From the UHGV virus genome UHGV-1378817: 64,000 bases of DNA. One strand, written 5' to 3'. Under the pieces are notes generated by a model, which saw only the letters and a program-made list of their open reading frames with translations, was not told the DNA's origin and did not search any database. The DNA comes from a virus. Of the stretch, positions 2,518 through 61,090 are shown piece after piece. The position numbers were made by a program, and so were the translations under genes. Positions within the stretch are counted from its first letter, which is position 1; the number at the start of each line of letters is the position of its first letter.

Positions 2518-2594
2518 TGGTCTCCACGGAGTGATTCGAACACTCGACCTCCTGATCCCAAATCAGGCGCTCTACCAAGCTGAGCTACGCGGAG
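2518..2594 (-). tRNA. tRNA-Pro (anticodon UGG)
   Basis: Minus-strand cloverleaf: 7-bp acceptor stem, anticodon stem CCUGA/UCAGG with loop UUUGGGA, T-loop GTTCGAATC, encoded CCA. Confidence 0.7.
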
Positions 2595-2605
2595 TATTTA
2601 TTATT

Positions 2606-2680
2606 TGGTGGCCCTGGGTGGAATTGAACCACCGTCTGGCGATTATGAGTCGCTTGCTTGAACCTTCCAGCTACAGGGCC
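2606..2680 (-). tRNA. tRNA-Met (anticodon CAU; could be a lysidine-modified Ile tRNA)
   Basis: Acceptor stem GGCCCUG/CAGGGCC, anticodon loop CUCAUAA, T-loop GGTTCAATTCC, encoded CCA. Confidence 0.6.
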
Positions 2681-2681
2681 A

Positions 2682-2757
2682 TGGTGCTGATAGCAGGACT
2701 CGAACCTGCAACCTATTGATTACAAATCAATTGCACTACCAATTGTGCTACATCAGC
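2682..2757 (-). tRNA. tRNA-Thr (anticodon UGU)
   Basis: Acceptor GCUGAUG/CAUCAGC, anticodon stem AUUGA/UCAAU with loop UUUGUAA, T-loop GGTTCGAGTCC, encoded CCA. Confidence 0.65.
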
Positions 2758-2762
2758 AAAAA

Positions 2763-2861
2763 GGTGCTAGGTGATGGAATCGAACCACCTATGTATTCAA
2801 CGACTACCTCGTCTATTTTCAGGATTAAAAATCCTCGCCCTTGCCAAAGGGCTTACCTAGC
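2763..2861 (-). tRNA. type II (long variable arm) tRNA-like gene, anticodon ambiguous
   Basis: Good acceptor stem (GCUAGGU/ACCUAGC), D-arm and T-arm (GGTTCGATTCC) plus a long variable arm, but the anticodon arm only forms a 4-bp stem with loop UUUUUAA; no encoded terminal A. Confidence 0.4.
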
Positions 2862-2959
2862 TCAGTATGTTGACCATGTTGCTAGTCGGCGATGACGACT
2901 GTAACATTTGATAATCCGGTTCTGCTTCCGGCTTTCGCTTAATTACAAGGTCAACAATA

Positions 2960-3049
2960 TGGCTGAGGGTAATGGAATCGAACCATCATCGAGTCATCCT
3001 CAACGGGACGGTTTTCAAGACCGCTTGAGCACCATTGCTCCCTACCCTC
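2960..3049 (-). tRNA. tRNA-Ser (anticodon UGA)
   Basis: Acceptor GAGGGUA/UACCCUC, anticodon loop CUUGAAA, long variable arm, T-loop GGTTCGATTCC, encoded CCA. Confidence 0.6.
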
Positions 3050-3164
3050 ATTTATAAACAATACTGATAATGACACTGATTTTCGAGCAGTTAGTGACTA
3101 GTATAAACGACGATAAATATCAATGCCATTATCTGTATGATTTATGCATTTAAAACTATAAATT

Positions 3165-3251
3165 TGGTGGGGAGTGGTGGAGTCGAACCACCCGAGTCGC
3201 AATGACAATAGATTTACAGTCTACACCGCTACCTCTACGGGATAACTCCCC
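3165..3251 (-). tRNA. tRNA-Tyr (anticodon GUA)
   Basis: Acceptor GGGGAGU/ACUCCCC, anticodon loop CUGUAAA, long variable arm, T-loop GGTTCGACTCC, encoded CCA. Confidence 0.6.
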
Positions 3252-3255
3252 AATT

Positions 3256-3330
3256 TGGCACCCCGTACTGGACTCGAACCAGTGTCAACGGCTTAGAAGG
3301 CCGCTGCTTTATCCACTAAGCTAACAGGGC
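3256..3330 (-). tRNA. tRNA-Arg (anticodon UCU)
   Basis: Acceptor stem with G-U wobbles, anticodon loop CUUCUAA, T-loop GGTTCGAGTCC, encoded CCA. Confidence 0.65.
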
Positions 3331-6268: not shown

Positions 6269-6823
6269 TTACTCCCCGCTGTCAATAGCAAGACTCATTG
6301 CAATACTGTATGCCTCTTCTAATGGTAAGAGTCTACCCCACACATCCCAACCGACATCAAACTGCCTGCCAAACAACTGTTGTGTGGTTCCGTGAGCATG
6401 ACCGAACAGTTGTACTGATCCGTGAGGCTTTCTGTTCCACTTTGCAAACTGGTAATGGCTCATACAGATCAAATTCTTGTTGTGGCGAAGCTCGTAATAA
6501 TCTACAACCTCATGATAGAACTCTTTCATAATTCTGACAGTCGTCCTTGTGTCATGGTTGCCACGAACAAGAATAATATGTCCGTTCAACATATTTAGAA
6601 TATCTGGAAGTAAGTTGTTGATATTTTTATCAGTAGTGCACGCAATATCTCCCAAGTGGAACACAGTGTCTGCAGGTGACACAACAGAGTTCCACTCGGC
6701 GATGATTCCCGCATTCATACTGTCAAGATTGTGATCATACTGAGATCTGTGTTTTTGACATGAATCAAACTCCATGACCCGCTGGTGGAGAAAGTGTGTG
6801 TCGCTTGTTACAAAGTATTTCAT
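6269..6823 (-). CDS. calcineurin-like metallophosphoesterase
   Basis: Motifs SDTHF (DxH), GDI, GNHD and GHAHG in canonical order; ORF 6269-6928 trimmed to Met MKYFVTSDTHF. Confidence 0.6.
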   Translation of the reverse strand: MKYFVTSDTHFLHQRVMEFDSCQKHRSQYDHNLDSMNAGIIAEWNSVVSPADTVFHLGDIACTTDKNINNLLPDILNMLNGHIILVRGNHDTRTTVRIMKEFYHEVVDYYELRHNKNLICMSHYQFAKWNRKPHGSVQLFGHAHGTTQQLFGRQFDVGWDVWGRLLPLEEAYSIAMSLAIDSGE

Positions 6824-6830
6824 ACATTCC

Positions 6831-7241
6831 TCATTTAAGTTTAATGCAGTTTTTAAGCTGGCGTTCCATACGATCCACAACCCTGTCTGGAACATCATGA
6901 ATGCTTTTATTACCGTGTCGGTTTTCAACCACGATTACGGTATAATTATACCCATGGCTGATTGCCATGTCAACATATTCTTGCACATGTTTTTCTTTTG
7001 TAAACGTATTACTTACCACGATACGGTCGTATCCCATACGCATCATATCTTCTACGTTATCTTTGCACCATTTTGCTGCAAGTGTTACTTTACTTGCATC
7101 CCAGTTGTAATTGCCGTCATCGTCGTACCAGAACATGTCGTTCTCAAAATGTGGATACAGACCTTCTAAAGATAGCGCATTTGCCAGTGTTGATTTGCCA
7201 GACCCTGGTAGACCACGCACGATATATAGCATTTTAGACAT
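6831..7241 (-). CDS. P-loop polynucleotide 5'-kinase-like protein
   Basis: MSKMLYIVRGLPGSGKSTLANAL Walker A; overall pattern resembles the T4 Pnk kinase domain; GGAGGA RBS upstream of ATG at 7241. Confidence 0.55.
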   Translation of the reverse strand: MSKMLYIVRGLPGSGKSTLANALSLEGLYPHFENDMFWYDDDGNYNWDASKVTLAAKWCKDNVEDMMRMGYDRIVVSNTFTKEKHVQEYVDMAISHGYNYTVIVVENRHGNKSIHDVPDRVVDRMERQLKNCIKLK

Positions 7242-7341
7242 AGTAATCCTCCGTTTTAATTTCAAAGATAGTATACCTAACTGTTTTGTTAATTTCAAGT
7301 GTTGACACTAGGTTATTTGTGTGGCAGGATAGACTGACAAA

Positions 7342-8277
7342 ATGACAAATGAGGAACGTATGATGAAGTATTTTAATGCAGACGACCTAGTTGACAAAGG
7401 TCTTGTAACCAGTAGATATTACCCAGATCTTGGGTTAAAGATCTATAAATACGCCAGAAAAGTATTTTACAACAATTTATGGCATTTGTCCCCTCGTTTA
7501 CTGGAGTGCCGAGGCATTGTTGTCGGTAATGAAGGAAATGTTGTGGCATGGCCCTTCACAAAAGTGTTTAACTTGGGAGAAAACTCCACCAACCTGCCTG
7601 ACAATAAGCTTGTGACGGCGGTAGAGAAAAAGAACGGATTCCTTGGTGTGGTATCATCTCATAAAGGTGAACTATTGTTCTCAACAACCGGATCTCTTGA
7701 TTCTCCATATTGTAACCTTGCAAAGGAAACCATCCAGGAGCAATGCGGTAATTTAGATCTTATCAAGAAGGTTATGGGCAATGAAAACATGACATTCATG
7801 TTTGAAATTTGTCACCCTTCAGATCCGCATATTGTTCAGGAAGATCATGGCGCATATTTGATAGGTTGCAGGTATAATGATTCTGGAATAATGCTACCAG
7901 AGGCAGCTTTAGATGGGATTGCCAAATACCTTGGTGCAAAACGTCCTCACACTGTGCGTGAAATTCCGTTCAGCTATGCAAAAGAATTGGCTGCAGAAAC
8001 AAGAGGTGAAGGGTATATGATTCGTAAGCCTTACTATCCTTATGATCTGCAGCTGAAGATCAAGTCTCCATACTATCTGGCACGGAAGGCCGTAATGAGG
8101 GGTAAAGCTTGGAAGATTTGGGATGATGATATCTTTAAACGTGTTGACGAAGAGTTTTACGGCATGGTAAACTTCATTCGCAACAACTACACAGAGGATG
8201 TATGGAACTGCCTCCTGGAGCAGGAACGCCGTGAGATACTTGACTACTATTTCCACAACGAGGACTATATGCAATGA
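7342..8277 (+). CDS. RNA ligase (T4 Rnl1-like)
   Basis: LLECRGIVV, PFTKVFNLGEN and nucleotidyltransferase motif I lysine in VEKKNGFLGVV parallel T4 RnlA (ECRGIMF, PMEKFFNLNEN, LTKEDGSLV). True start may be ATG at 7360 (better RBS). Confidence 0.55.
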   Translation: MTNEERMMKYFNADDLVDKGLVTSRYYPDLGLKIYKYARKVFYNNLWHLSPRLLECRGIVVGNEGNVVAWPFTKVFNLGENSTNLPDNKLVTAVEKKNGFLGVVSSHKGELLFSTTGSLDSPYCNLAKETIQEQCGNLDLIKKVMGNENMTFMFEICHPSDPHIVQEDHGAYLIGCRYNDSGIMLPEAALDGIAKYLGAKRPHTVREIPFSYAKELAAETRGEGYMIRKPYYPYDLQLKIKSPYYLARKAVMRGKAWKIWDDDIFKRVDEEFYGMVNFIRNNYTEDVWNCLLEQERREILDYYFHNEDYMQ

Positions 8278-8624
8278 AGAAGTTGATTGTGTGGCTGGAT
8301 GACTTGAGAGACCCGTCAAATTATGGGCTCCCAGACGCTATTTGGCTAAAGAATTCCTCCGAGTTTATGGATTTTATTAACGATAATAGAAAGCTCTACA
8401 GACGCGTTTCTGAGTGGCATATGGACAACGACCTTGGAGAGGTATTAGAAGGGTACGATTGTCTATCTATGTTGGAGGAAAAATTTGTATTTGGTAAGCC
8501 TCCTGTAGTTGACAACGTGAAGATTTTCGTGCATACTTCTAACCCATCAGCTGCTCGTAAATTCATGCTTGCAGCTGACTCGTTTAAAAAGTTTGGAATA
8601 GAGATTAAACAAAACATCTACTGA
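8274..8624 (+). CDS. hypothetical protein
   Basis: 116-aa ORF translationally coupled to the RNA ligase gene; no motif I recognise. Confidence 0.45.
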   Translation: MKKLIVWLDDLRDPSNYGLPDAIWLKNSSEFMDFINDNRKLYRRVSEWHMDNDLGEVLEGYDCLSMLEEKFVFGKPPVVDNVKIFVHTSNPSAARKFMLAADSFKKFGIEIKQNIY

Positions 8625-8632
8625 GGACACTT

Positions 8633-9394
8633 ATGCGACGACTTATTATTATCTCCGGTGCTGGTTTGAGCGCTGAATCTGGTATTCCCACTTTCCGATC
8701 TGGTAGCACTGCAATGTGGGAGAATTTCAGCATCGATGAGGTGTGCAACATCCACACCTTTGCCAAGAACTACTATAAGGTGCATGACTTTTACAATGCA
8801 CGTCGTGTAGCTCTAGGCAGTGTTGAGCCTAACCTTGCACATCTTCGGATCGCTGAGTGGTATTCCCGCTGGTCTGGTCGTGTGATCAACCTTACCACCA
8901 ATGTAGATGATTTGCTGGAGCGTGCTGGTGTAAAACATGAAGATATTTTACATGTCCACGGGTATTTGCCAGAAATAGTCTATGAGGACGATGAAGGAAG
9001 TGACGTCATTAAGGACATTGGATACTCTGAGGTAGACGCAGGAAAGTATACCTGGGTTAAGCCTAATGTGGTGTTCTTCGGAGAAGTAGCTCCGAAGTAT
9101 ACAGACATGTATGACCTGTTGACTTCTCTTACGAGCAATGATATGGTTATCCTTGTAGGGTGCTCCAACACAGTTATCAATTTTAACTGGGAGCTATTCC
9201 CTGCCTGCAATAAGGGAACAAAACTGCTGATCGTTAACAAATACGACTCACAGCAGCTAGGGGAGAATGGCATTTCACGTAGTGATATTTACCAATATGA
9301 GGATCGCGGCATCCCAGTTTGGTTTAACGGGGCGGTTGATGCTTTCTCTGATAAAACATTCATTGAGACCGTAGAAAACTTTATGGAACTTTAA
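8633..9394 (+). CDS. Sir2 (sirtuin) family NAD-dependent protein
   Basis: N-terminal GAGLSAESGIPTFRSG matches the sirtuin NAD-binding motif GAGISAESGIPTFRG; downstream NxxD...HG pattern (TNVDDLLERAG...HVHG). Confidence 0.7.
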   Translation: MRRLIIISGAGLSAESGIPTFRSGSTAMWENFSIDEVCNIHTFAKNYYKVHDFYNARRVALGSVEPNLAHLRIAEWYSRWSGRVINLTTNVDDLLERAGVKHEDILHVHGYLPEIVYEDDEGSDVIKDIGYSEVDAGKYTWVKPNVVFFGEVAPKYTDMYDLLTSLTSNDMVILVGCSNTVINFNWELFPACNKGTKLLIVNKYDSQQLGENGISRSDIYQYEDRGIPVWFNGAVDAFSDKTFIETVENFMEL

Positions 9395-9407
9395 AAGGAG
9401 ACCTTTA

Positions 9408-10121
9408 ATGCTGAATACCAAATTAATTGACAACCTGGAAAAACTGTCCCAACCTGAAAACTACCTTTGGTCTGCCAACTGGGTGGAAAACTGGAACCGT
9501 GTGGCAGCTAAAGTGAAAAAATCATACACACCATTCGAATTACAGCTTAGCTTCATTGAGGAAGAGTTCAATGAAGTTTTGGAAGAGCTGGAGAAAGGTG
9601 ATGGCGGAGATCACCTGCTAAAAGAGGCCTGCGATCTTCACGTTGTCACAAGTTATGCCGCTTATCTTGTTAATGATAATCACGAAAAGTGGTCAAACCT
9701 GTTTGATAATCCACAGGGTCTTAAGTTCAAGATCGGTGAGTTCTATGATACACTGATCGCTGCGAAAAACACCTCTAAGCAAAAAGCGTCCGCTTACCGC
9801 TTAGCAGAGTTGTCAACAGCTTTGCTGTTCCAGCTTCGCGGCGATGTGTGCGGGATGATGCGTAAGGTTCTCAAATCGAATGACAGCAAGTTTGCACGGG
9901 TCAACCATCTACGGTATTCACACGGTGCCAGTGCAGATATGCCTGCTGAACAACTCATCGAGTTGGAGATTAAAGATCTTGAGCGACGCTTTGATGGTCG
10001 ATATGAAGGTTTTGTTGCTAAGGAAGAATTCTACAACGGTAATAAAGTTATCATATTCCTTGACAGCAAAGGTAAGATCATGAAGCCTTCGAGCTTCAAG
10101 GATGTAACAGAGTATATTTAA
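9408..10121 (+). CDS. hypothetical protein, possibly MazG-like all-alpha NTP pyrophosphohydrolase
   Basis: FIEEEFNEVLEELEKGD...LLKEACDLHVV resembles the MazG EExxE...D acidic motif; weak. Confidence 0.3.
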   Translation: MLNTKLIDNLEKLSQPENYLWSANWVENWNRVAAKVKKSYTPFELQLSFIEEEFNEVLEELEKGDGGDHLLKEACDLHVVTSYAAYLVNDNHEKWSNLFDNPQGLKFKIGEFYDTLIAAKNTSKQKASAYRLAELSTALLFQLRGDVCGMMRKVLKSNDSKFARVNHLRYSHGASADMPAEQLIELEIKDLERRFDGRYEGFVAKEEFYNGNKVIIFLDSKGKIMKPSSFKDVTEYI

Positions 10122-10128
10122 CAACATA

Positions 10129-10147
10129 GCCGGGATTACCCGGCTTT
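10129..10147 (+). terminator. putative terminator hairpin
   Basis: AGCCGGG-att-ACCCGGCT followed by TTT, directly after the stop of ORF 9408-10121. Confidence 0.4.
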
Positions 10148-10154
10148 ACTTGTT

Positions 10155-10493
10155 GTGGAAAGTATGCAAGTGAGGAAGATAGTTATGTACAAGCACTCTA
10201 GAGATCTTGAAAACGATGCTGTGTTTGGGGATCAGATGAAAGAGTTGGTTAAACTCATAGGCAGGATAGAGGATAAGTTTGACACTAAGATCTACATCGA
10301 CAGCAAAGTATTCAACCACAAAATATGGACAAATCTGTGTGTTGGACTACATGGAGATAAAGATGTGGTAAATTTAGTTGTAATTAAGTTCATAGTGTGG
10401 CAGAATAAAACTATAAATTATTACGATCCACACCTGCTTGTTTACCCGATAAAAGACCTATTAGATAAGGAGGACTGCAGTGCCGTTATTTAA
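10155..10493 (+). CDS. hypothetical protein
   Basis: 112-aa ORF in the plus-strand operon. Confidence 0.35.
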   Translation: MESMQVRKIVMYKHSRDLENDAVFGDQMKELVKLIGRIEDKFDTKIYIDSKVFNHKIWTNLCVGLHGDKDVVNLVVIKFIVWQNKTINYYDPHLLVYPIKDLLDKEDCSAVI

Positions 10494-10749
10494 TCTTGCT
10501 AAACCTGTAGAAGCACACCAGTTTGACGGAAGCTCTTCATCAGTATCTGATCTGCAACGGTGGATTGATACAGGTGTGTTTACATCGTCACCTGTTCGTA
10601 CCAGAGATCTTCGTCGCATGTGTGAGCTTGTCGAGCCGTTTGGTAACCTGGTCTTGTACCAGGGAGATTGGTTAGTTGACTTTATGGGAGACTGGTTGGT
10701 AATGAGTAAAGAAGAGATGTTTAACATTTTTAAGGAAGAGGCCGAGTAA
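10480..10749 (+). CDS. hypothetical protein
   Basis: 89-aa ORF; stop overlaps the DNA ligase start. Confidence 0.35.
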   Translation: MPLFNLAKPVEAHQFDGSSSSVSDLQRWIDTGVFTSSPVRTRDLRRMCELVEPFGNLVLYQGDWLVDFMGDWLVMSKEEMFNIFKEEAE

Positions 10750-12156: not shown

Positions 12157-12627
12157 ATGAAACTTGATAAAAATGTTCAACGAAAAGCTTTCTTGGATAT
12201 GATCGCATATTCGGAAGGCACAGATAATGGTAGACAACCTACCAAGGATCGGGGGTACGATGTCATAGTCGGAGGCAAGCTGTTCAGCGATTACAGCAAG
12301 CATCCCGGTGTTTACGTTAAGCTAAATGCTAAGCTTACCTCCTCCGCTGCTGGGCGTTACCAGGTTTTGGAGAAGTTTGCTAAACACTACATGAAACAGT
12401 TAGGATTACCAGATTTTGGCCCTGCCAGTCAGGACAAGATTGCGTTGCAACTGATCCGTGAGTGCAAGGCTCTCGCCGACATTGACGAAGGGCGTATCCA
12501 CGAAGCTATCCGCAAATGCCGTTCCCGCTGGGCTTCGTTACCCGGTGCCGGATATGGTCAGCATGAACAGAAGATCGAGAAGTTGATCGAGGTGTTTAAA
12601 AAGGCAGGCGGCATTGTTCTGGATTGA
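12157..12627 (+). CDS. endolysin (lambda R-like lysozyme / lytic transglycosylase)
   Basis: QRKAFLDMIAYSEGTDNGRQPTKDRGYDVIVGG closely parallels lambda R (QRKAFLDMLAWSEGTDNGRQKTRNHGYDVIVGG). Confidence 0.75.
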   Translation: MKLDKNVQRKAFLDMIAYSEGTDNGRQPTKDRGYDVIVGGKLFSDYSKHPGVYVKLNAKLTSSAAGRYQVLEKFAKHYMKQLGLPDFGPASQDKIALQLIRECKALADIDEGRIHEAIRKCRSRWASLPGAGYGQHEQKIEKLIEVFKKAGGIVLD

Positions 12628-44143: not shown

Positions 44144-44298
44144 CAAAATATCAAATTTAAGACACCTAGGACGCTCTGTGGCGTCCTTTTCTTTATCTGG
44201 TGCACGATTGCATACCTTGGACAGGTAATCTCATTATAGAGCGCTTTAGAAAGAATTTGACTGTTTTCCTAAACCACCAACATCTTGAGGTATCATTT

Positions 44299-44520
44299 AT
44301 GAAAATTGTTCTATACGACGATAACGATATTGCTCTCAGTACTGTATATTTTGAAGATGATGATCTGCCAGATTTTCTACGTGTCTCCACATTTGCTGCA
44401 GAATACGGTGTGAGCCGTCAGGCAATGCATAAGTACCGAGAGTATCAGAATTGCTCATGGGCTGAGACCTTTATGCACTTTATCCAACGTAAGCAGGCTC
44501 TGGACCGCAAAAAGCTTTAA
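44299..44520 (+). CDS. small putative DNA-binding protein
   Basis: ORF 44200-44520 trimmed to Met MKIVLYDDND; FAAEYGVSRQAMHKY looks HTH-like. Confidence 0.35.
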   Translation: MKIVLYDDNDIALSTVYFEDDDLPDFLRVSTFAAEYGVSRQAMHKYREYQNCSWAETFMHFIQRKQALDRKKL

Positions 44521-44620
44521 GTGTATATACTTTTTATTTCGAGCGTAGCGAGAACGCACGTCCGTTTTGACCCAAATCACCATACGCTCGGATTTTAACC
44601 AAACCCTCGCGGCGTTTCTG

Positions 44621-44649
44621 TTGACACATTACCGCTCTCGTGATAGTAT
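44621..44649 (+). promoter_or_regulatory. sigma70-like promoter
   Basis: TTGACA-17 nt-TAGTAT; GGAGAA RBS and ATG at about 44682 downstream. Confidence 0.45.
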
Positions 44650-44681
44650 CCACACATCGTTTGGAGAATATGGGATACACA

Positions 44682-44771
44682 ATGAGAACATTGTCCGAAG
44701 TTTTAGTGGTGATCCTGATGATCATTACGTCCATAGCGGCTGTTGCCGGAATACTCACGGGTGGAACATGA
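44682..44771 (+). CDS. candidate small hydrophobic peptide (~29 aa)
   Basis: MRTLSEVLVVILMIITSIAAVAGILTGGT, single TM-like helix, own promoter and RBS; overlaps two featureless longer ORFs (44567-44980 plus, 44534-44953 minus) so the coding frame here is unresolved. Confidence 0.3.
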   Translation: MRTLSEVLVVILMIITSIAAVAGILTGGT

Positions 44772-45101
44772 TCAACACGCATGCATCTGAAGAGACATCT
44801 GAAGGAGTGACCATATGTCCATTGGCTGATCCAGTGAAAGGGGAAAACTTCGATTCTGAAGATTCTCCATCTTCGCTCCAGATAGATCCTGAGGCTGATG
44901 ACTTGACGTGGGGAGACATCGTAGATATCTGGTTCTCTATTATGCCTGAGCACGAAGAGTTCAGAGGTGGTAGACTATGAAGCACCGAGCCCACACAGGT
45001 TCCTCATGCTAAAGCATGGCCTGAAGAGGCAAACGTGCATAATTCCCGTGCATTGGAACGTATAAAACCCTGTTCACACTCTCATTTCCAGAGGAGATTT
45101 C

Positions 45102-45317
45102 ATGAAGATAGAAATATTTGGTGGGGCTGACAACACTCGTGGCCTGATTTACCTTGAATTTGATGAATCATACCTGCCAGAGGTGTTAAATATAGACTCT
45201 GTTGCTGAGGCTTTGGGAGTAAACCCTAAAGAACTCCACTCTTGTGCTGAGATCGATGGTTGGGAAGAGACCATGAACATTGATTTCAGTGAAGTAGAGG
45301 ACGAACCGCTGGACTGA
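45102..45317 (+). CDS. small acidic protein
   Basis: MKIEIFGG... 71 aa with GGAG RBS; last gene of the plus-strand block. Confidence 0.4.
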   Translation: MKIEIFGGADNTRGLIYLEFDESYLPEVLNIDSVAEALGVNPKELHSCAEIDGWEETMNIDFSEVEDEPLD

Positions 45318-45446
45318 CACACAATTAGCTGCCCGGCTAAAGTGCTGGAAGCGCACCTATAACACATCTTTCAACTAAATTTCCTACCACCACAATCACT
45401 TACCTCCAACACATGACTGTTTGCTTGTTTAGTGAGCAGTCATGCC

Positions 45447-45474
45447 TTGACATTCTTGCCTATCCTGATAAAAT
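45447..45474 (+). promoter_or_regulatory. sigma70-like promoter reading into a GC-rich non-coding segment
   Basis: TTGACA-16 nt-TAAAAT with no ORF downstream; followed by about 270 nt of unusually GC-rich sequence ending in a G-run and T-rich stretch near 45730-45760. Confidence 0.4.
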
Positions 45475-47725
45475 TAAGTTCTTCTCTTTTCTTTTACCGA
45501 GTAATTCGGGTTTTCTGTTCTCTTCGGTTTGAAGGGGTATGGAGATACACCTGAGTGAACAGGGTGAACAACCGAACCATTGGCTATGGCATTAGCATGG
45601 CGAAGCGGACGGGTGACGAAAGAGGGGCCGGAGGACACCAGTCACTGCCATATGATATATGGGTGATAACCTGAAGAGTCTGAATAAGTGTTTAAGTACC
45701 AGTCAGAGGAAAAGGTGAATGGTAGCCGAAGGGGGAGGGGGGTTTCTTGTATCTTTAATTTGTATATTATGTATACACTTGTAAACCAATATCATCTAGA
45801 TCTGTTTACCACACAAAGTGGATAGAGACAAATATTACCTATTAAACTTGAATTATTTATAGAAAATACCACAACACCACTTAAGTCTTTGATTTTACAC
45901 ACAAATCTTACAGATATTCAACCTCCATATTTAACATACCTGTAACATATTCCATACTCTACCTGCCTGATCAATTTCCCCAACTACATCCCTCATATTT
46001 CCCCTGTCTGTACTACCCTGCCCCACCGGGAGTCCCGTCATATCTGGCTTTCCAGCAAATATCACACCCACAAATATCATGCCTGAAGAGGGTTTCATCC
46101 CATAATACCTGCCTTGCCTGAAGAGCGCTTCATACACCACGTAAATTTTTTAATTGACCTCCCCTGCCCCGCCGGAGAGGTTGGCTTTTCCCACACAGAC
46201 CTGAAGAGTCAGCCAGAAATATCTGAATAGGCCCAGTTCTACCACGATTTTGACCTGACCTACAGGAGCGCTGCCAGGCGGACGAAATGGGAATACTTCT
46301 CATTCTTATAACAATTCTCAAATATCGAGGCAGTGAGGCAAATTAATAGGCCAGGCCGTTCACACAGTGGCACAACATTTGCAACCTATCTTGTGGGGGT
46401 GAATGAGAATACCTATCATTGTGAGAACCATTATCATTACGGGCAATTTAACATAATACCCATTATGCGCACCACTGGTGATACATACAGGGATTGATAA
46501 CACGAGTTACAGTTTACGCATATAACAATCATATTTCTTACTATTTGTGTGGGATATAGTTAGCAGCCGATAGATTAGATATTGACCTGTGGACTTCCAA
46601 CCGTCTAGACGTCTAAGCGCCCACACAACAAGGCTTATACATACATTACTGAATGTAAACAGGGCCGCAAAAATGCTACCATACCAGTTTGTAAATTTTC
46701 ATGCAGCACTTGACAAAGAGGAGGAAAACTTGTCTGACACAATGTCACACAATATGACACAATAACGGCTGTTACCATTCCATATCTCACTGTTTACGCA
46801 TAGACTGTTTACGCCTGGATAGTTTACACCTTGACAGTTTACACAGATATGATAAGCCATGACATTCGTTTGCATGAAAACAATTAGCAAGTTAACAATT
46901 AACAAGTTAATAATATATGACATAATATAAAAGCAGGGCAACTATTAGAAGATCTATAGTTGCCTTGCTTGTTATGTCATGATTAACTAAATACAAGGCA
47001 ACTATGATCTGATTAATAGTTTGCAGACAAACTATCACGGGGGTGATGGTTACTGCTTTTATATTATGTCGCGACTCCGTCGCGCCATGCCATTCGTTTG
47101 CATAGTTGCCTTATTGTTACAGATAAAATAATTGTATTGTTAATTATTTCTTATCTTTCTATTAGTCATCTAATGATTCCGGTTAGTATAGTAACGTACA
47201 GTAAACATTAGACGACTAAATATTTCTATGTTTATGATAACCTATCGTGACAATTCCGGACTGTTTACGAAAAATGTTGACACCTGAGCTGATTTATGTT
47301 ATGCAATTTAAACGAATAATTATTTTATGCAGGTATTGACTATTCCGTTATTCTATGGTTGGAATAAATACTTAGCAAGCTATAGAATGGTGAGCGTACG
47401 TAAATTCTGAGATTTGTCGGCTATAGTTATACTCGATTTTTCACGTAGAACACGCTTTTTGGTTTGTGTAAGTGTATGACTTATAAAGATTTTTAGTTGT
47501 TGACAAGATATTGAAGATGTGCATCAGGTTAAATTTTGTGCAATAGCTGCATTACGTGCAATTTTGGAAGGAAAACTGGTAAAAATAGCACCGATACCAC
47601 ACAATGAAAGGTTATGCAATAGCTATTTTATATGTATATTTGTACAGTGTGCAGGATTGATGGCTCGTCAATTATTCCACTTGCCAGGTAGGGCCGTTTA
47701 TGGTAGGGGAAGAGCAGACAAAAAG

Positions 47726-60592: not shown

Positions 60593-61090
60593 TCAACACT
60601 TTTTGTACTCTACTACAACCACATCAATATCTGTGGTTGCAAGATTAATTACATCTTCTACATGTTTCCACTTTAGACCTCCAATACCGCATCCGATTTT
60701 AGGAATGTAGAACGGCAATGACATACCTTTGAATACCTCGTTGACTCGCTCAAAACCTTTCATGATTGAGAAGTATTCAGCATTGGGCCCTGGGTAGAAC
60801 TGGGTATATAGGTTGATTCCATATACGACCCTGGCCTTGGCAAAATGCTCCCAACAAGAAAACATACCCAGCTTGTCTAGATTACCATAAGCAGTCTCTT
60901 TGTCGGCTGCCAGTGCTTGAGGGAACTCACGGGCAATATCTTTCGCTATACCTGCACCCATTGTGTGAAAGCAGTTACAACCGTGGATCATGTGGCCTGA
61001 CCCTTTCTTGAAAATGGAGATTAGATCTCCCTTTACAGTATCAATAATCACGGTATTCCAGCTCCTCTTCTGCAATTTCCAAAAACTCAT
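60593..61090 (-). CDS. macro-domain protein (ADP-ribose binding/processing)
   Basis: VIIDTVKGDLISIF...HGCNCFHTMGAGIAKDI fits the macro-domain N-terminal pattern. Start uncertain: the longest ORF reaches 61150 and overlaps the upstream gene by about 110 nt; Met at 61090 still overlaps by about 50 nt. Confidence 0.45.
   Translation of the reverse strand: MSFWKLQKRSWNTVIIDTVKGDLISIFKKGSGHMIHGCNCFHTMGAGIAKDIAREFPQALAADKETAYGNLDKLGMFSCWEHFAKARVVYGINLYTQFYPGPNAEYFSIMKGFERVNEVFKGMSLPFYIPKIGCGIGGLKWKHVEDVINLATTDIDVVVVEYKKC

What the first reader, a model, noticed from the sequence alone, without database searches (positions are those of the whole stretch)
8633..9394. Sir2-family NAD-dependent enzyme in the early block
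The sirtuin NAD-binding signature GAGLSAESGIPTFR is intact. Sir2 domains act as deacylases, ADP-ribosyltransferases or NAD hydrolases, and bacteria use Sir2 NADases in several defence systems, so a phage copy could modify host proteins or alter NAD pools. A macro-domain gene, the usual partner for ADP-ribose products, is also present but 50 kb away (60593-61090).
Basis: partly seen in the sequence, partly recalled or inferred. Interest (0 to 1): 0.55.

Follow-up and report, generated by a model that had tools for sequence, protein, structure and literature searches.

The report
Zinc-less phage sirtuin in RNA-repair operon
The gene is a real but already catalogued sirtuin of rV5-like coliphages that has lost its zinc-binding cysteines and sits in one operon with an RNA ligase, so it most likely performs an NAD-consuming step of phage tRNA/RNA repair; that role was proposed in 2022 and has not been tested.

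Summary
The ORF at 8633-9394 (+) is real. It encodes 253 aa and matches Pfam SIR2 at 96 bits. It is under strong purifying selection (dN/dS 0.03-0.06). The window is a Vequintavirus (rV5-like coliphage), and the gene is 99.6% identical to an annotated "sirtuin" of phage JohannBauhin. Relatives occur in 982 phage records, including T5.

The NAD motif GAGLSAESGIPTFR, the catalytic His109 and a SIRT5/CobB-type YxxR motif are intact. All four zinc-ribbon cysteines are missing, and the near-universal TQNxD motif reads TTNVD. These two changes covary across the clade.

The gene is third in a tightly packed unit, T4-type RNA ligase, cREC, Sir2 and a MazG-like gene, closed by a terminator hairpin. A polynucleotide kinase and a metallophosphoesterase are transcribed divergently next to it. 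Relatives in other phages sit beside different RNA-repair, ADP-ribose-processing or NAD-salvage genes.

This neighbourhood was described by Iyer et al. 2022 (PMC9503650), who proposed a KptA/Tpt1-like removal of RNA 2'-phosphate. I found no experimental test.

The macro-domain gene exists, but on the minus strand, 51 kb away. The protein is not a SirTM and not a defence NADase. The main rival is a CobB-like protein deacylase.

Verdict: already known and moderately interesting.

The parts
8633..9394 (+). Sir2-family gene (253 aa), a Zn-less phage sirtuin
   Evidence: ORF; Pfam SIR2 96 bits; PHROG 2162; CobB-like fold with TM 0.75-0.83; dN/dS 0.03-0.06
8657..8698 (+). NAD-binding motif GAGLSAESGIPTFR (residues 9-22)
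   Evidence: Read from the sequence. G9, A10, G11, S13, S16, G17, F21 and R22 are invariant or nearly so in 120 homologues
8792..8803 (+). Y54-N-A-R57, a YxxR motif of class III sirtuins (SIRT5 Y102/R105, CobB) that binds an anionic group
   Evidence: Aligned with SIRT5 FYHYRR and CobB FYNARR. F53, Y54, R57 and R58 are invariant
8894..8908 (+). TTNVD motif (residues 88-92), the canonical TQNxD with Gln replaced by Thr
   Evidence: TTNVD occurs in 117/120 close homologues. The Q-to-T change covaries with loss of the Zn cysteines
8957..8962 (+). Catalytic His109-Gly110
   Evidence: Aligned with CobB HMHG; invariant
8963..9058 (+). Cysteine-free remnant of the zinc ribbon (residues 111-142) with a conserved (D/N)-(I/V)-G-Y motif
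   Evidence: No Cys in this stretch. Relatives of the same length carry CxxC...CxxC here. The model predicts beta strands 110-118 and 124-128 with pLDDT ~94-96
7342..8277 (+). T4 Rnl1-type RNA ligase, first gene of the unit; its stop overlaps the cREC start by 4 nt
   Evidence: Pfam RNA_lig_T4_1 56 bits; annotated as RNA ligase in relatives
8274..8624 (+). cREC protein (cyclic-phosphate-processing receiver domain); ends 8 nt before the Sir2 start
   Evidence: Pfam cREC_REC PF20274, 55 bits against a cutoff of 27
9408..10121 (+). MazG-like nucleotide pyrophosphohydrolase; starts 13 nt after Sir2
   Evidence: PHROG 671 E=6e-22; no Pfam hit; listed as MazG in PMC9503650
10128..10145 (.). GC-rich hairpin (7 bp stem, 6 GC pairs) followed by a T-run, a terminator-like site that closes the four-gene unit
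6831..7298 (-). P-loop polynucleotide kinase (AAA_33), transcribed divergently from the ligase (annotated start corresponds to 7238)
   Evidence: Pfam AAA_33 42 bits; 'polynucleotide kinase' in JohannBauhin
6269..6928 (-). Calcineurin-like metallophosphoesterase, a candidate 3'-end healing enzyme (annotated start corresponds to 6823)
   Evidence: Pfam Metallophos and Metallophos_2; annotation
60593..61090 (-). Macro-domain gene, a possible remote processor of the ADP-ribose by-product; not an operon partner
   Evidence: Pfam Macro 25 bits; nearest solved relatives are 5e3b, the Poa1p ADP-ribose-1''-phosphate phosphatase and OARD1

Best explanation
The gene encodes an active, NAD-consuming sirtuin of a phage-specific, zinc-less subclade related to class III enzymes (CobB/SIRT5). 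It is co-expressed with an Rnl1-type RNA ligase, a cREC cyclic-phosphate-processing protein and a MazG-like pyrophosphohydrolase. A divergent polynucleotide kinase and a metallophosphoesterase lie next to it. The most likely role is the NAD-dependent step of a phage tRNA/RNA break-repair pathway that counters host ribonucleases leaving 2',3'-cyclic phosphate ends. In the proposed pathway, cREC or the phosphoesterase opens the cyclic phosphate, the kinase phosphorylates the 5'-OH, and the ligase seals the break. The sirtuin then transfers ADP-ribose from NAD+ onto the leftover 2'-phosphate (a terminal phosphate is an alternative target). [quoted passage not shown] This is the KptA/Tpt1 reaction on a different fold. 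Y54/R57 would hold the anionic phosphate. MazG, cREC and the distant macro domain would dispose of the ADP-ribose product. Shown here: family membership, intact catalytic motifs, loss of the Zn ligands, operon structure, and recurrent genomic linkage. Inferred: the substrate and the chemistry, which follow Iyer et al. 2022 (PMC9503650).
For: Catalytic competence: the GAGxS..GIPxFR motif, N90/D92, H109-G110, the FGE loop, GxS and N202 are invariant in 120 homologues, and dN/dS is 0.03-0.06. Operon: Rnl1 and cREC overlap by 4 nt, cREC and Sir2 are 8 nt apart, Sir2 and the MazG-like gene 13 nt apart, and a terminator hairpin follows at 10128-10145. The same gene set is kept at 45-58% Sir2 identity in 14 IMG/VR loci. 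Different RNA-repair partners appear in other lineages. 28 loci from ~104-122 kb contigs, one the length of phage T5, have HAD_SAK_2 ('Swiss-army-knife RNA repair' HAD phosphatase) 1-3 genes downstream; in T5 itself it shares the annotated promoter-terminator unit. Metagenomic Cys-less relatives sit as RlaP-Sir2-NADAR, as Sir2 overlapping PTH2 peptidyl-tRNA hydrolase, and as Sir2 next to Metallophos in a bacterium. Others sit as Sir2 + NadR-like + HAD_SAK_2 and as RlaP..NAMPT..Sir2. NAD-salvage neighbours fit real NAD consumption. The YxxR anion-binding motif is invariant. No KptA/Tpt1 is annotated anywhere in the 99.6%-identical JohannBauhin genome. A phage tRNA cluster lies 4 kb upstream. 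A published comparative-genomic proposal covers exactly this neighbourhood (PMC9503650).
Against: There is no biochemical evidence for any sirtuin acting on RNA, and no experimental paper on this clade was found. The protein is acidic (pI 4.8; family median 5.1), which is unlike typical RNA-binding enzymes. Kinase, metallophosphoesterase and ligase already form a complete T4-style heal-and-seal set that leaves no 2'-phosphate, so a Tpt1-like step is not obviously needed. About 13 loci (~150 kb contigs; phage alia, Stephanstirmvirinae, is an example) show only unknown-function neighbours. The closest solved structures are genuine protein deacylases, and the hydrophobic residues of the FGE loop are kept. 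Gene linkage shows association, not substrate.
Confidence: 0.45

Rival explanations
1. It is a conventional protein lysine deacylase (deacetylase, desuccinylase or lipoamidase like E. coli CobB or SIRT5). It would reset acylation of host or phage proteins during infection, possibly including the neighbouring ligases, whose catalytic lysines must be free. The linkage to RNA-repair genes would then be regulatory or coincidental.
For: The best sequence and fold matches are CobB and SIRT5. The catalytic His, the YxxR motif that gives SIRT5/CobB their desuccinylase specificity, and the FGE loop are conserved. NCBIfam's best hits are 'NAD-dependent protein deacylase' models. The macro domain in the window resembles OARD1, an O-acyl-ADP-ribose deacylase.
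Against: It fails every curated CobB cutoff (122 vs 243 bits, 103 vs 320). It has lost the four-Cys zinc module; that canonical deacylases need this module is my own knowledge and was not tested here. The near-universal Gln of TQNxD is replaced. The host already has CobB. Repeated linkage to RNA/tRNA-end enzymes in independent lineages is not explained.
Confidence: 0.33
2. It is an NAD glycohydrolase, or it processes an NAD-derived signal. It would change the NAD pool or destroy or mimic immune messengers (counter-defence or superinfection exclusion), like the Sir2 effectors of Thoeris, DSR or Sir2-HerA.
For: Sir2 domains can be NADases (background in PMC9503650). Some relatives lie next to NAD-salvage genes, NAMPT and a NadR-like gene.
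Against: There is no significant PADLOC hit. SIR2_2 (PF13289) scores only 12 bits, E=0.17, so the protein belongs to the canonical PF02146 branch. An unregulated NADase in a lytic phage operon would deplete a cofactor the phage needs. No sensor or partner domain and no informative fusions were found.
Confidence: 0.08
3. It is a SirTM-like protein ADP-ribosyltransferase that works with the window's macro-domain protein as a writer/eraser pair.
For: A macro-domain gene exists in the same genome. Sirtuins can ADP-ribosylate proteins (PMC4518038).
Against: SirTMs replace the catalytic His by Gln (QG) and are adjacent or fused to their macrodomain. Here HG is kept, and the macro gene is 51 kb away on the opposite strand. 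Iyer et al. also note the lack of a linked Macro gene in this clade.
Confidence: 0.05
4. It repairs chemically blocked tRNA rather than broken tRNA. It would remove N-acyl groups from aminoacyl-tRNA acetylated by GNAT toxins of the TacT/AtaT type. This is my own speculation, prompted by the Sir2-PTH2 gene pair.
For: One Cys-less relative overlaps a peptidyl-tRNA hydrolase 2 gene. The window gene sits in a tRNA-repair context near a phage tRNA cluster.
Against: This rests on a single neighbourhood. Sirtuins are known for epsilon-N-acyl-lysine, not alpha-N-acyl-aminoacyl esters. No such activity has been reported.
Confidence: 0.04

Closest known systems
Phage RNA-repair-associated sirtuin clade (Iyer, Burroughs, Anantharaman & Aravind 2022, Viruses 14:1977, PMC9503650, section 3.7.3; 'type 2' neighbourhood prototyped by Escherichia phage V5 and Proteus phage Mydo)
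   Same: It is the same phage lineage and the same gene set: sirtuin, T4-like tRNA ligase, cREC, nucleotide kinase, MazG and calcineurin-like phosphoesterase, with no adjacent Macro. The T5-type variant with a Swiss-army-knife HAD was reproduced here.
   Different: Nothing essential differs. This report adds three things I did not see in the passages read: the loss of all four Zn cysteines, the covarying Q-to-T change in TQNxD, and the extra contexts (PTH2, RlaP-NADAR, NAMPT, NadR-like). The function remains a prediction.
E. coli CobB / human SIRT5 (class III sirtuins; PDB 1s5p, 6rxq, 3riy)
   Same: The Rossmann fold matches with TM 0.72-0.83. The GAGxS..FR motif, YxxR, N and D of the C-pocket, catalytic HG, the FGE loop and GxS are shared.
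   Different: Identity is only 24-31%. It falls below the NCBIfam CobB cutoffs. It has no zinc cysteines, reads TTNVD instead of TQNID, and carries an extra ~45-residue C-terminal extension (residues ~207-253) conserved in the phage clade.
KptA/Tpt1 RNA 2'-phosphotransferase
   Same: [quoted passage not shown] Both are genomically associated with RNA ligases and cyclic-phosphate processing enzymes.
   Different: The fold and family are unrelated: the Pfam scan of this protein returned only SIR2. Tpt1 activity is demonstrated, whereas here it is inferred. This protein is acidic.
SirTM (class M, macrodomain-linked sirtuins; Rack et al. 2015, PMC4518038)
   Same: Both are sirtuin-fold proteins, and an ADP-ribosyl-transfer chemistry other than deacylation is under consideration for both.
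   Different: SirTMs have QG in place of the catalytic HG, keep the zinc domain and sit in one operon with a macrodomain. Here HG is kept, zinc is lost and the macro gene is 51 kb away.
Defence-associated Sir2 NADases (ThsA, DSR1/2, Sir2-HerA, pAgo-associated)
   Same: Both belong to the Sir2 superfamily and consume NAD.
   Different: There is no PADLOC match and no SIR2_2 match. The gene is phage-encoded, has a single domain, and sits in a lytic-phage repair operon.

Membership tests
Sir2/sirtuin family (Pfam PF02146) | Profile match above the curated threshold | tested here: met
   96.2 bits against a cutoff of 24, covering profile positions 1-178 of 180
Sir2/sirtuin family (Pfam PF02146) | Rossmann-fold NAD site with the GAGxS...GIPxFR motif | tested here: met
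   Residues 9-22; invariant in the family
Sir2/sirtuin family (Pfam PF02146) | Catalytic histidine (HG) | tested here: met
   H109-G110 align with CobB HMHG; invariant
Sir2/sirtuin family (Pfam PF02146) | TQNxD motif: Asn and Asp of the nicotinamide pocket, plus the Gln | tested here: inconclusive
   N90 and D92 are kept, but Gln is replaced by Thr (TTNVD) in 117/120 close homologues
Sir2/sirtuin family (Pfam PF02146) | Four-cysteine zinc ribbon in the small domain | tested here: not met
   There is no Cys between residues 39 and 176. Relatives with an insert of the same length carry CxxC...CxxC
Sir2/sirtuin family (Pfam PF02146) | Sirtuin fold | tested here: met
   The AF2 model (pLDDT 89.5) matches CobB, SIRT5 and Af-Sir2 at probability 1.0, TM 0.70-0.83
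Class III sirtuins / CobB orthologues | YxxR acidic-acyl recognition motif | tested here: met
   Y54/R57 align with SIRT5 Y102/R105 (residue numbering from my own knowledge)
Class III sirtuins / CobB orthologues | NCBIfam equivalog score cutoffs | tested here: not met
   122 vs 243 bits, 103 vs 320 bits and 92 vs 318 bits
Class III sirtuins / CobB orthologues | NAD-dependent lysine deacylase activity | not testable with these tools
   Needs an enzyme assay
SirTM (class M) | Catalytic His replaced by Gln (QG) | tested here: not met
   HG is retained; definition from PMC4518038
SirTM (class M) | Macrodomain adjacent in the same operon or fused | tested here: not met
   The macro gene is at 60593-61090 on the minus strand, 51 kb away
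Defence Sir2 NADases (Thoeris ThsA, DSR, Sir2-HerA, SPARSA) | Match to PADLOC defence models or to SIR2_2 PF13289 | tested here: not met
   PADLOC's only hit is PDC-S65 at E=0.0076 over 33 residues; SIR2_2 gives E=0.17
Phage RNA-repair sirtuin clade (Iyer et al. 2022) | Phage-specific sirtuin clade | tested here: met
   PHROG 2162 E=5e-109; 982 phage records including T5
Phage RNA-repair sirtuin clade (Iyer et al. 2022) | Conserved neighbourhood with RNA ligase, cREC, kinase, MazG and phosphoesterase | tested here: met
   description
Phage RNA-repair sirtuin clade (Iyer et al. 2022) | NAD-dependent removal of RNA 2'-phosphate | not testable with these tools
   This is a prediction only; no experimental report was found
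KptA/Tpt1 (RNA 2'-phosphotransferase) | Homology to the KptA/Tpt1 family | tested here: not met
   The Pfam scan returned SIR2 only. The resemblance is functional and hypothetical, not membership

The most novel reading that the evidence does not exclude
This zinc-less, TTNVD-type sirtuin is the first sirtuin whose physiological substrate is a nucleic acid. It would be an NAD-dependent RNA 2'-phosphotransferase, or an enzyme that ADP-ribosylates RNA end phosphates, that evolved convergently with Tpt1/KptA. Loss of the zinc ribbon cysteines and the Gln-to-Thr change would be the adaptations that open the acyl-lysine cleft to an RNA phosphate. It would then be part of a widespread phage counter-defence against tRNA-cleaving host nucleases (982 phage records including T5).
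Probability: 0.3. Interest if true: 0.75.

Novelty: already known. Interest (0 to 1): 0.38.

Why it matters
If the prediction holds, sirtuin chemistry would extend from proteins to RNA. Phages would have a second, unrelated solution to the Tpt1 step of RNA repair. It would also explain why roughly 2% of sequenced phages, including the classic T5 and the rV5 group used in therapy cocktails, carry a sirtuin. NAD supply, the target of many bacterial defences, would then be linked to the phage's ability to mend tRNAs cut by other defences. If the enzyme is simply a deacylase, it is an ordinary auxiliary gene. Either way the gene, the family and the hypothesis are already in the literature and databases, so the value of this finding is as a well-defined, cheap biochemical test rather than a discovery.

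Tried and rejected
1. Defence-type Sir2 NADase: the PADLOC and SIR2_2 scans were negative.

2. SirTM/macro pair: rejected on the catalytic residue and on gene distance.

3. CobB orthologue recently taken from the host: rejected. Identity to E. coli CobB is 31%, and the protein falls below all NCBIfam cutoffs.

4. Domain fusions of long relatives as 'Rosetta stone' clues: ten proteins of 297-528 aa gave only SIR2, plus one with WG_beta_rep, so this was uninformative.

5. Third neighbourhood type (~150 kb contigs; phage alia, Stephanstirmvirinae, is an example): the flanking genes have no Pfam hit and only unknown-function PHROGs (8514, 9509, 8562), so there was no functional clue.

6. Searches for experimental work on phage sirtuins, for sirtuin together with Tpt1/KptA, and for rV5/Vequintavirus sirtuins returned only the comparative-genomics papers.

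7. A sigma-70 promoter directly upstream of the ligase gene was not found. The consensus scan only gave sites inside ORFs, so the start of the transcription unit is not defined.

8. NAD-salvage, KptA or ART genes elsewhere in the genome: none is annotated in the 99.6%-identical JohannBauhin record, but most of its small ORFs are 'hypothetical'.

Full report
**Observation.**
It runs from the ATG at 8633 to the stop ending at 9394 on the + strand and encodes 253 aa. A GAGGA ribosome-binding sequence lies 7-11 nt upstream. Residues 9-22 read GAGLSAESGIPTFR.

The protein matches Pfam SIR2 (PF02146) at 96 bits, E=3e-27, over essentially the whole profile. It matches PHROG 2162, 'Sir2 (NAD-dependent deacetylase)', at E=5e-109. 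An AlphaFold2 model built on 41 homologues has mean pLDDT 89.5. Its best Foldseek matches in the PDB are E. coli CobB (TM 0.75 on the query, 0.83 on the target), then human SIRT5 and the Archaeoglobus Sir2 proteins.

Against two relatives the gene shows dN/dS of 0.03 and 0.06, so it is a maintained, functional gene.

**Where the window comes from.**
The region 8000-10200 is 98.4% identical to Escherichia phage JohannBauhin (Bas53, Vequintavirus). It matches 121 phage records at 80% identity or more, nearly all above 90%. Where those records are annotated, the gene is already called 'Sir2-like protein', 'sirtuin domain NAD-dependent deacetylase' or 'cobB'.

At the protein level the family is found in 982 phage records:
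- phage T5 itself (T5.102, 58% identity);
- Klebsiella phages of ~135-144 kb (55-56% identity), the identity range of the Mydovirus-named homologue P0054;
- ~140-156 kb coliphages such as phage alia (Stephanstirmvirinae);
- KVP40-like vibriophages and jumbo phages.

So the gene and its family are known objects.

The catalytic histidine is present. H109 in 'HVHG' aligns with the HMHG of CobB and the HG of SIRT5, and is invariant in 120 homologues.

The zinc-binding cysteines are absent. The protein's only cysteines are C38, C177 and C192, and none lies in the 36 residues between the HG motif and the KPNVVFFGE loop, where the zinc ribbon belongs.

The ribbon has not simply been deleted. Among the 150 nearest 50%-identity cluster representatives, many carry an insert of the same length (about 32-40 residues). 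That insert has CxxC...CxxC flanking a conserved (D/N)-(I/V)-G-Y motif, which the query also keeps as DIGY at residues 128-131. The model still predicts the beta strands there with pLDDT around 94-96. The rV5/T5 branch is therefore a degenerate zinc ribbon that has lost its ligands.

A second change travels with this one. The near-universal TQNxD motif reads TTNVD. Among the 93 representatives I could parse, Thr goes with 0-2 Cys in 28 of 32, and Gln goes with 3 or more Cys in 49 of 56.

Everything else needed for NAD chemistry is invariant: G9, A10, G11, S13, S16, G17, F21, R22, N90, D92, the FGE loop, G176, S178 and N202. The class III 'YxxR' motif is also invariant (Y54, R57). In SIRT5 and CobB that motif binds the carboxylate of succinyl- or malonyl-lysine.

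The protein fails all curated NCBIfam CobB thresholds, for example 122 against 243 bits. It is only 31% identical to E. coli CobB. It is a divergent phage lineage, not a captured host gene.

The gene is the third of four tightly packed + strand genes:
- a T4 Rnl1-type RNA ligase (7342-8277; Pfam RNA_lig_T4_1);
- a cREC 'cyclic-phosphate processing receiver domain' protein (8274-8624; PF20274, 55 bits), which overlaps the ligase stop by 4 nt;
- Sir2, starting 8 nt after cREC;
- a MazG-like nucleotide pyrophosphohydrolase (9408-10121; PHROG 671), starting 13 nt after Sir2.

A GC-rich hairpin with a T-run follows at 10128-10145. A P-loop polynucleotide kinase (6831-7298) and a calcineurin-like phosphoesterase (6269-6928) are transcribed divergently from the ligase. 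A cluster of seven phage tRNA genes lies 4 kb upstream. Together this is a heal-and-seal RNA repair module.

**Is the association more than local accident?**
I collected 63 IMG/VR loci that encode relatives and looked at their neighbours.
- Fourteen loci, at 45-58% Sir2 identity (one at 94%), keep the kinase, phosphoesterase, ligase, MazG and DNA-ligase set. cREC was detectable by phmmer in nine of them.
- Twenty-eight loci from ~104-122 kb contigs, one of them the exact length of phage T5, lack those genes. They carry a HAD_SAK_2 'Swiss-army-knife RNA repair' phosphatase one to three genes downstream. In T5 it lies within the same annotated promoter-terminator unit.
- About thirteen loci from ~150 kb contigs have only unknown-function neighbours (phage alia, Stephanstirmvirinae, is an annotated example).

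More distant Cys-less relatives in metagenomic contigs sit in further variations:
- RlaP (RNA-repair nucleotidyltransferase)-Sir2-NADAR;
- Sir2 overlapping a peptidyl-tRNA hydrolase 2 gene;
- Sir2 next to a metallophosphoesterase in a bacterial chromosome;
- Sir2 followed by a NadR-like NMN adenylyltransferase/kinase, with HAD_SAK_2 nearby;
- RlaP, NAMPT and then Sir2.

The recurring partners are therefore RNA/tRNA end-processing enzymes, ADP-ribose-processing domains and NAD-salvage enzymes. This is what one expects of an enzyme that spends NAD on an RNA-repair reaction.

**What is already published.**
[quoted passage not shown] They also describe the T5-like (SP15) variant with the HAD phosphatase. 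They note the absence of a linked Macro gene. They propose that the sirtuin's ADP-ribosyltransferase activity is used like KptA to remove 2'-phosphates left from 2',3'-cyclic phosphate ends.

I found no experimental test of this in the searchable literature.

**Mechanism I consider most likely (confidence about 0.45).**
Host metal-independent ribonucleases cut tRNA or mRNA, leaving 2',3'-cyclic phosphate and 5'-OH ends. The proposed steps are:
1. The kinase phosphorylates the 5' end.
2. cREC or the phosphoesterase opens the cyclic phosphate.
3. Rnl1 seals the break.
4. The sirtuin uses NAD+ to take away the residual 2'-phosphate.

The chemistry is a natural extension of sirtuin catalysis; this is my inference. 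Instead of an acyl oxygen, a phosphate oxygen held by Y54/R57 attacks C1'' of NAD and expels nicotinamide. H109 then activates the ribose 2''-OH, as it does in deacylation, which attacks the phosphodiester. [quoted passage not shown] MazG, cREC and the genome's Poa1p/OARD1-like macro domain could degrade that product.

The family, the motifs, the zinc loss, the operon and the linkage are shown. The substrate and the chemistry are not.

**Evidence against.**
- The protein is acidic (pI 4.8).
- A kinase + phosphoesterase + ligase set can repair breaks without ever creating a 2'-phosphate.
- One large phage group shows no recognisable repair neighbours.
- The nearest solved homologues are true protein deacylases.

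**Rivals.**
- A CobB/SIRT5-like protein deacylase (0.33) fits the homology and the YxxR motif. It does not explain the lost zinc module, the altered TQNxD or the repeated RNA-repair linkage.
- An NADase or anti-signal enzyme (0.08) is disfavoured by the lack of any similarity to defence Sir2 families.
- A SirTM-type writer paired with the macro domain (0.05) fails both defining features.
- A speculative N-acyl-aminoacyl-tRNA deacylase role (0.04) rests on a single PTH2 neighbourhood.

**Verdict.**
It misses the zinc loss and the operon context, and the macro 'partner' is on the other strand, 51 kb away.

The gene, its family and the leading functional hypothesis are already known, so novelty is 'already known'. 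Interest is moderate (0.38). The open question, whether a sirtuin acts on RNA, is attractive and directly testable with a simple assay, but this scan did not raise it.

Noticed in passing
window 2518-3330 (- strand): A cluster of seven tRNA genes (Pro, Met/Ile-like CAT, Thr, Ser, Tyr, Arg) lies 4 kb upstream of the RNA-repair genes. It includes an odd 97-99 nt tRNA-like gene at 2763-2861. ARAGORN cannot assign it (a 4-base 'anticodon', atcc). Rfam scores it at only 35.5 bits. The JohannBauhin record annotates it as tRNA-Lys.
   Followed up: partly
L068 6142-6648 (phage T5 RefSeq NC_005859.1, T5.105): T5.105 is labelled 'Sir2 (NAD-dependent deacetylase)' in RefSeq. It is really a HAD_SAK_2 phosphatase with a DIDGV motif: 98% identical to the protein that hits PF18143, and with no similarity to the sirtuin. 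This is a probable annotation error carried over from its neighbour T5.102.
   Followed up: yes
window 8000-10200 versus GenBank records such as MG065655 and MG065672: Eighteen to twenty-five records named 'Campylobacter phage' (host C. jejuni, ~140 kb, mostly unannotated) are 93-97% identical to this E. coli Vequintavirus region. This suggests mislabelled hosts or contamination in those deposits.
   Followed up: no
window ~44200-47600, especially 46890-47150: This ~2.5 kb stretch has no annotated CDS in either JohannBauhin or slur16, and gene orientation flips here. It contains nested inverted repeats (for example 46919-46936 / 47053-47070, 18 nt, 100% complementary) and short direct repeats. 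It may be an origin or a regulatory region.
   Followed up: partly
window 6945-6973 (- strand): A perfect sigma-70 consensus (TTGACA, 17 nt spacer, TATAAT; 12/12) lies inside the kinase ORF, just upstream of the metallophosphoesterase gene. It is the only perfect match in the 7 kb scanned.
   Followed up: no
window 60593-61090 (- strand): The nearest solved relatives of the macro-domain protein are S. coelicolor SCO6735-type macrodomain 5e3b, yeast Poa1p (ADP-ribose-1''-phosphate phosphatase, the enzyme downstream of Tpt1) and human OARD1/TARG1. It is annotated only as 'hypothetical' or 'phosphatase' in relatives.
   Followed up: partly
window 12157-12627 (+ strand): An endolysin gene sits alone inside the replication/repair block, right after the DNA ligase. 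The holin and spanin genes annotated in relatives lie far from it.
   Followed up: no
L078 5001-6100; L074 4917-7181; L084 1-5711; L072/L073: Cys-less sirtuin relatives in uncultured phage contigs sit next to PTH2 peptidyl-tRNA hydrolase (overlapping stop/start), between RlaP and NADAR, downstream of NAMPT, or directly upstream of a NadR-like NMNAT/kinase. As far as I read, these contexts are not listed in the 2022 survey.
   Followed up: partly
L069 4793-6013 (phage alia) and L032-L038, L055-L058: In ~150 kb phages (phage alia, Stephanstirmvirinae, is the annotated example) the sirtuin is preceded by conserved proteins of unknown function, about 200-240 aa (PHROG 8514) and, in the alia-type loci, a further 170-195 aa protein (PHROG 9509). 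The latter overlaps the sirtuin start. They are candidate uncharacterised partners.
   Followed up: no
window 10155-10749 (+ strand): Two small conserved ORFs of unknown function (112 aa, PHROG 7684; 89 aa, PHROG 14585) lie between the terminator hairpin and the ATP-dependent DNA ligase. They travel with the module in the Klebsiella-phage-type loci (L023-L059).
   Followed up: no
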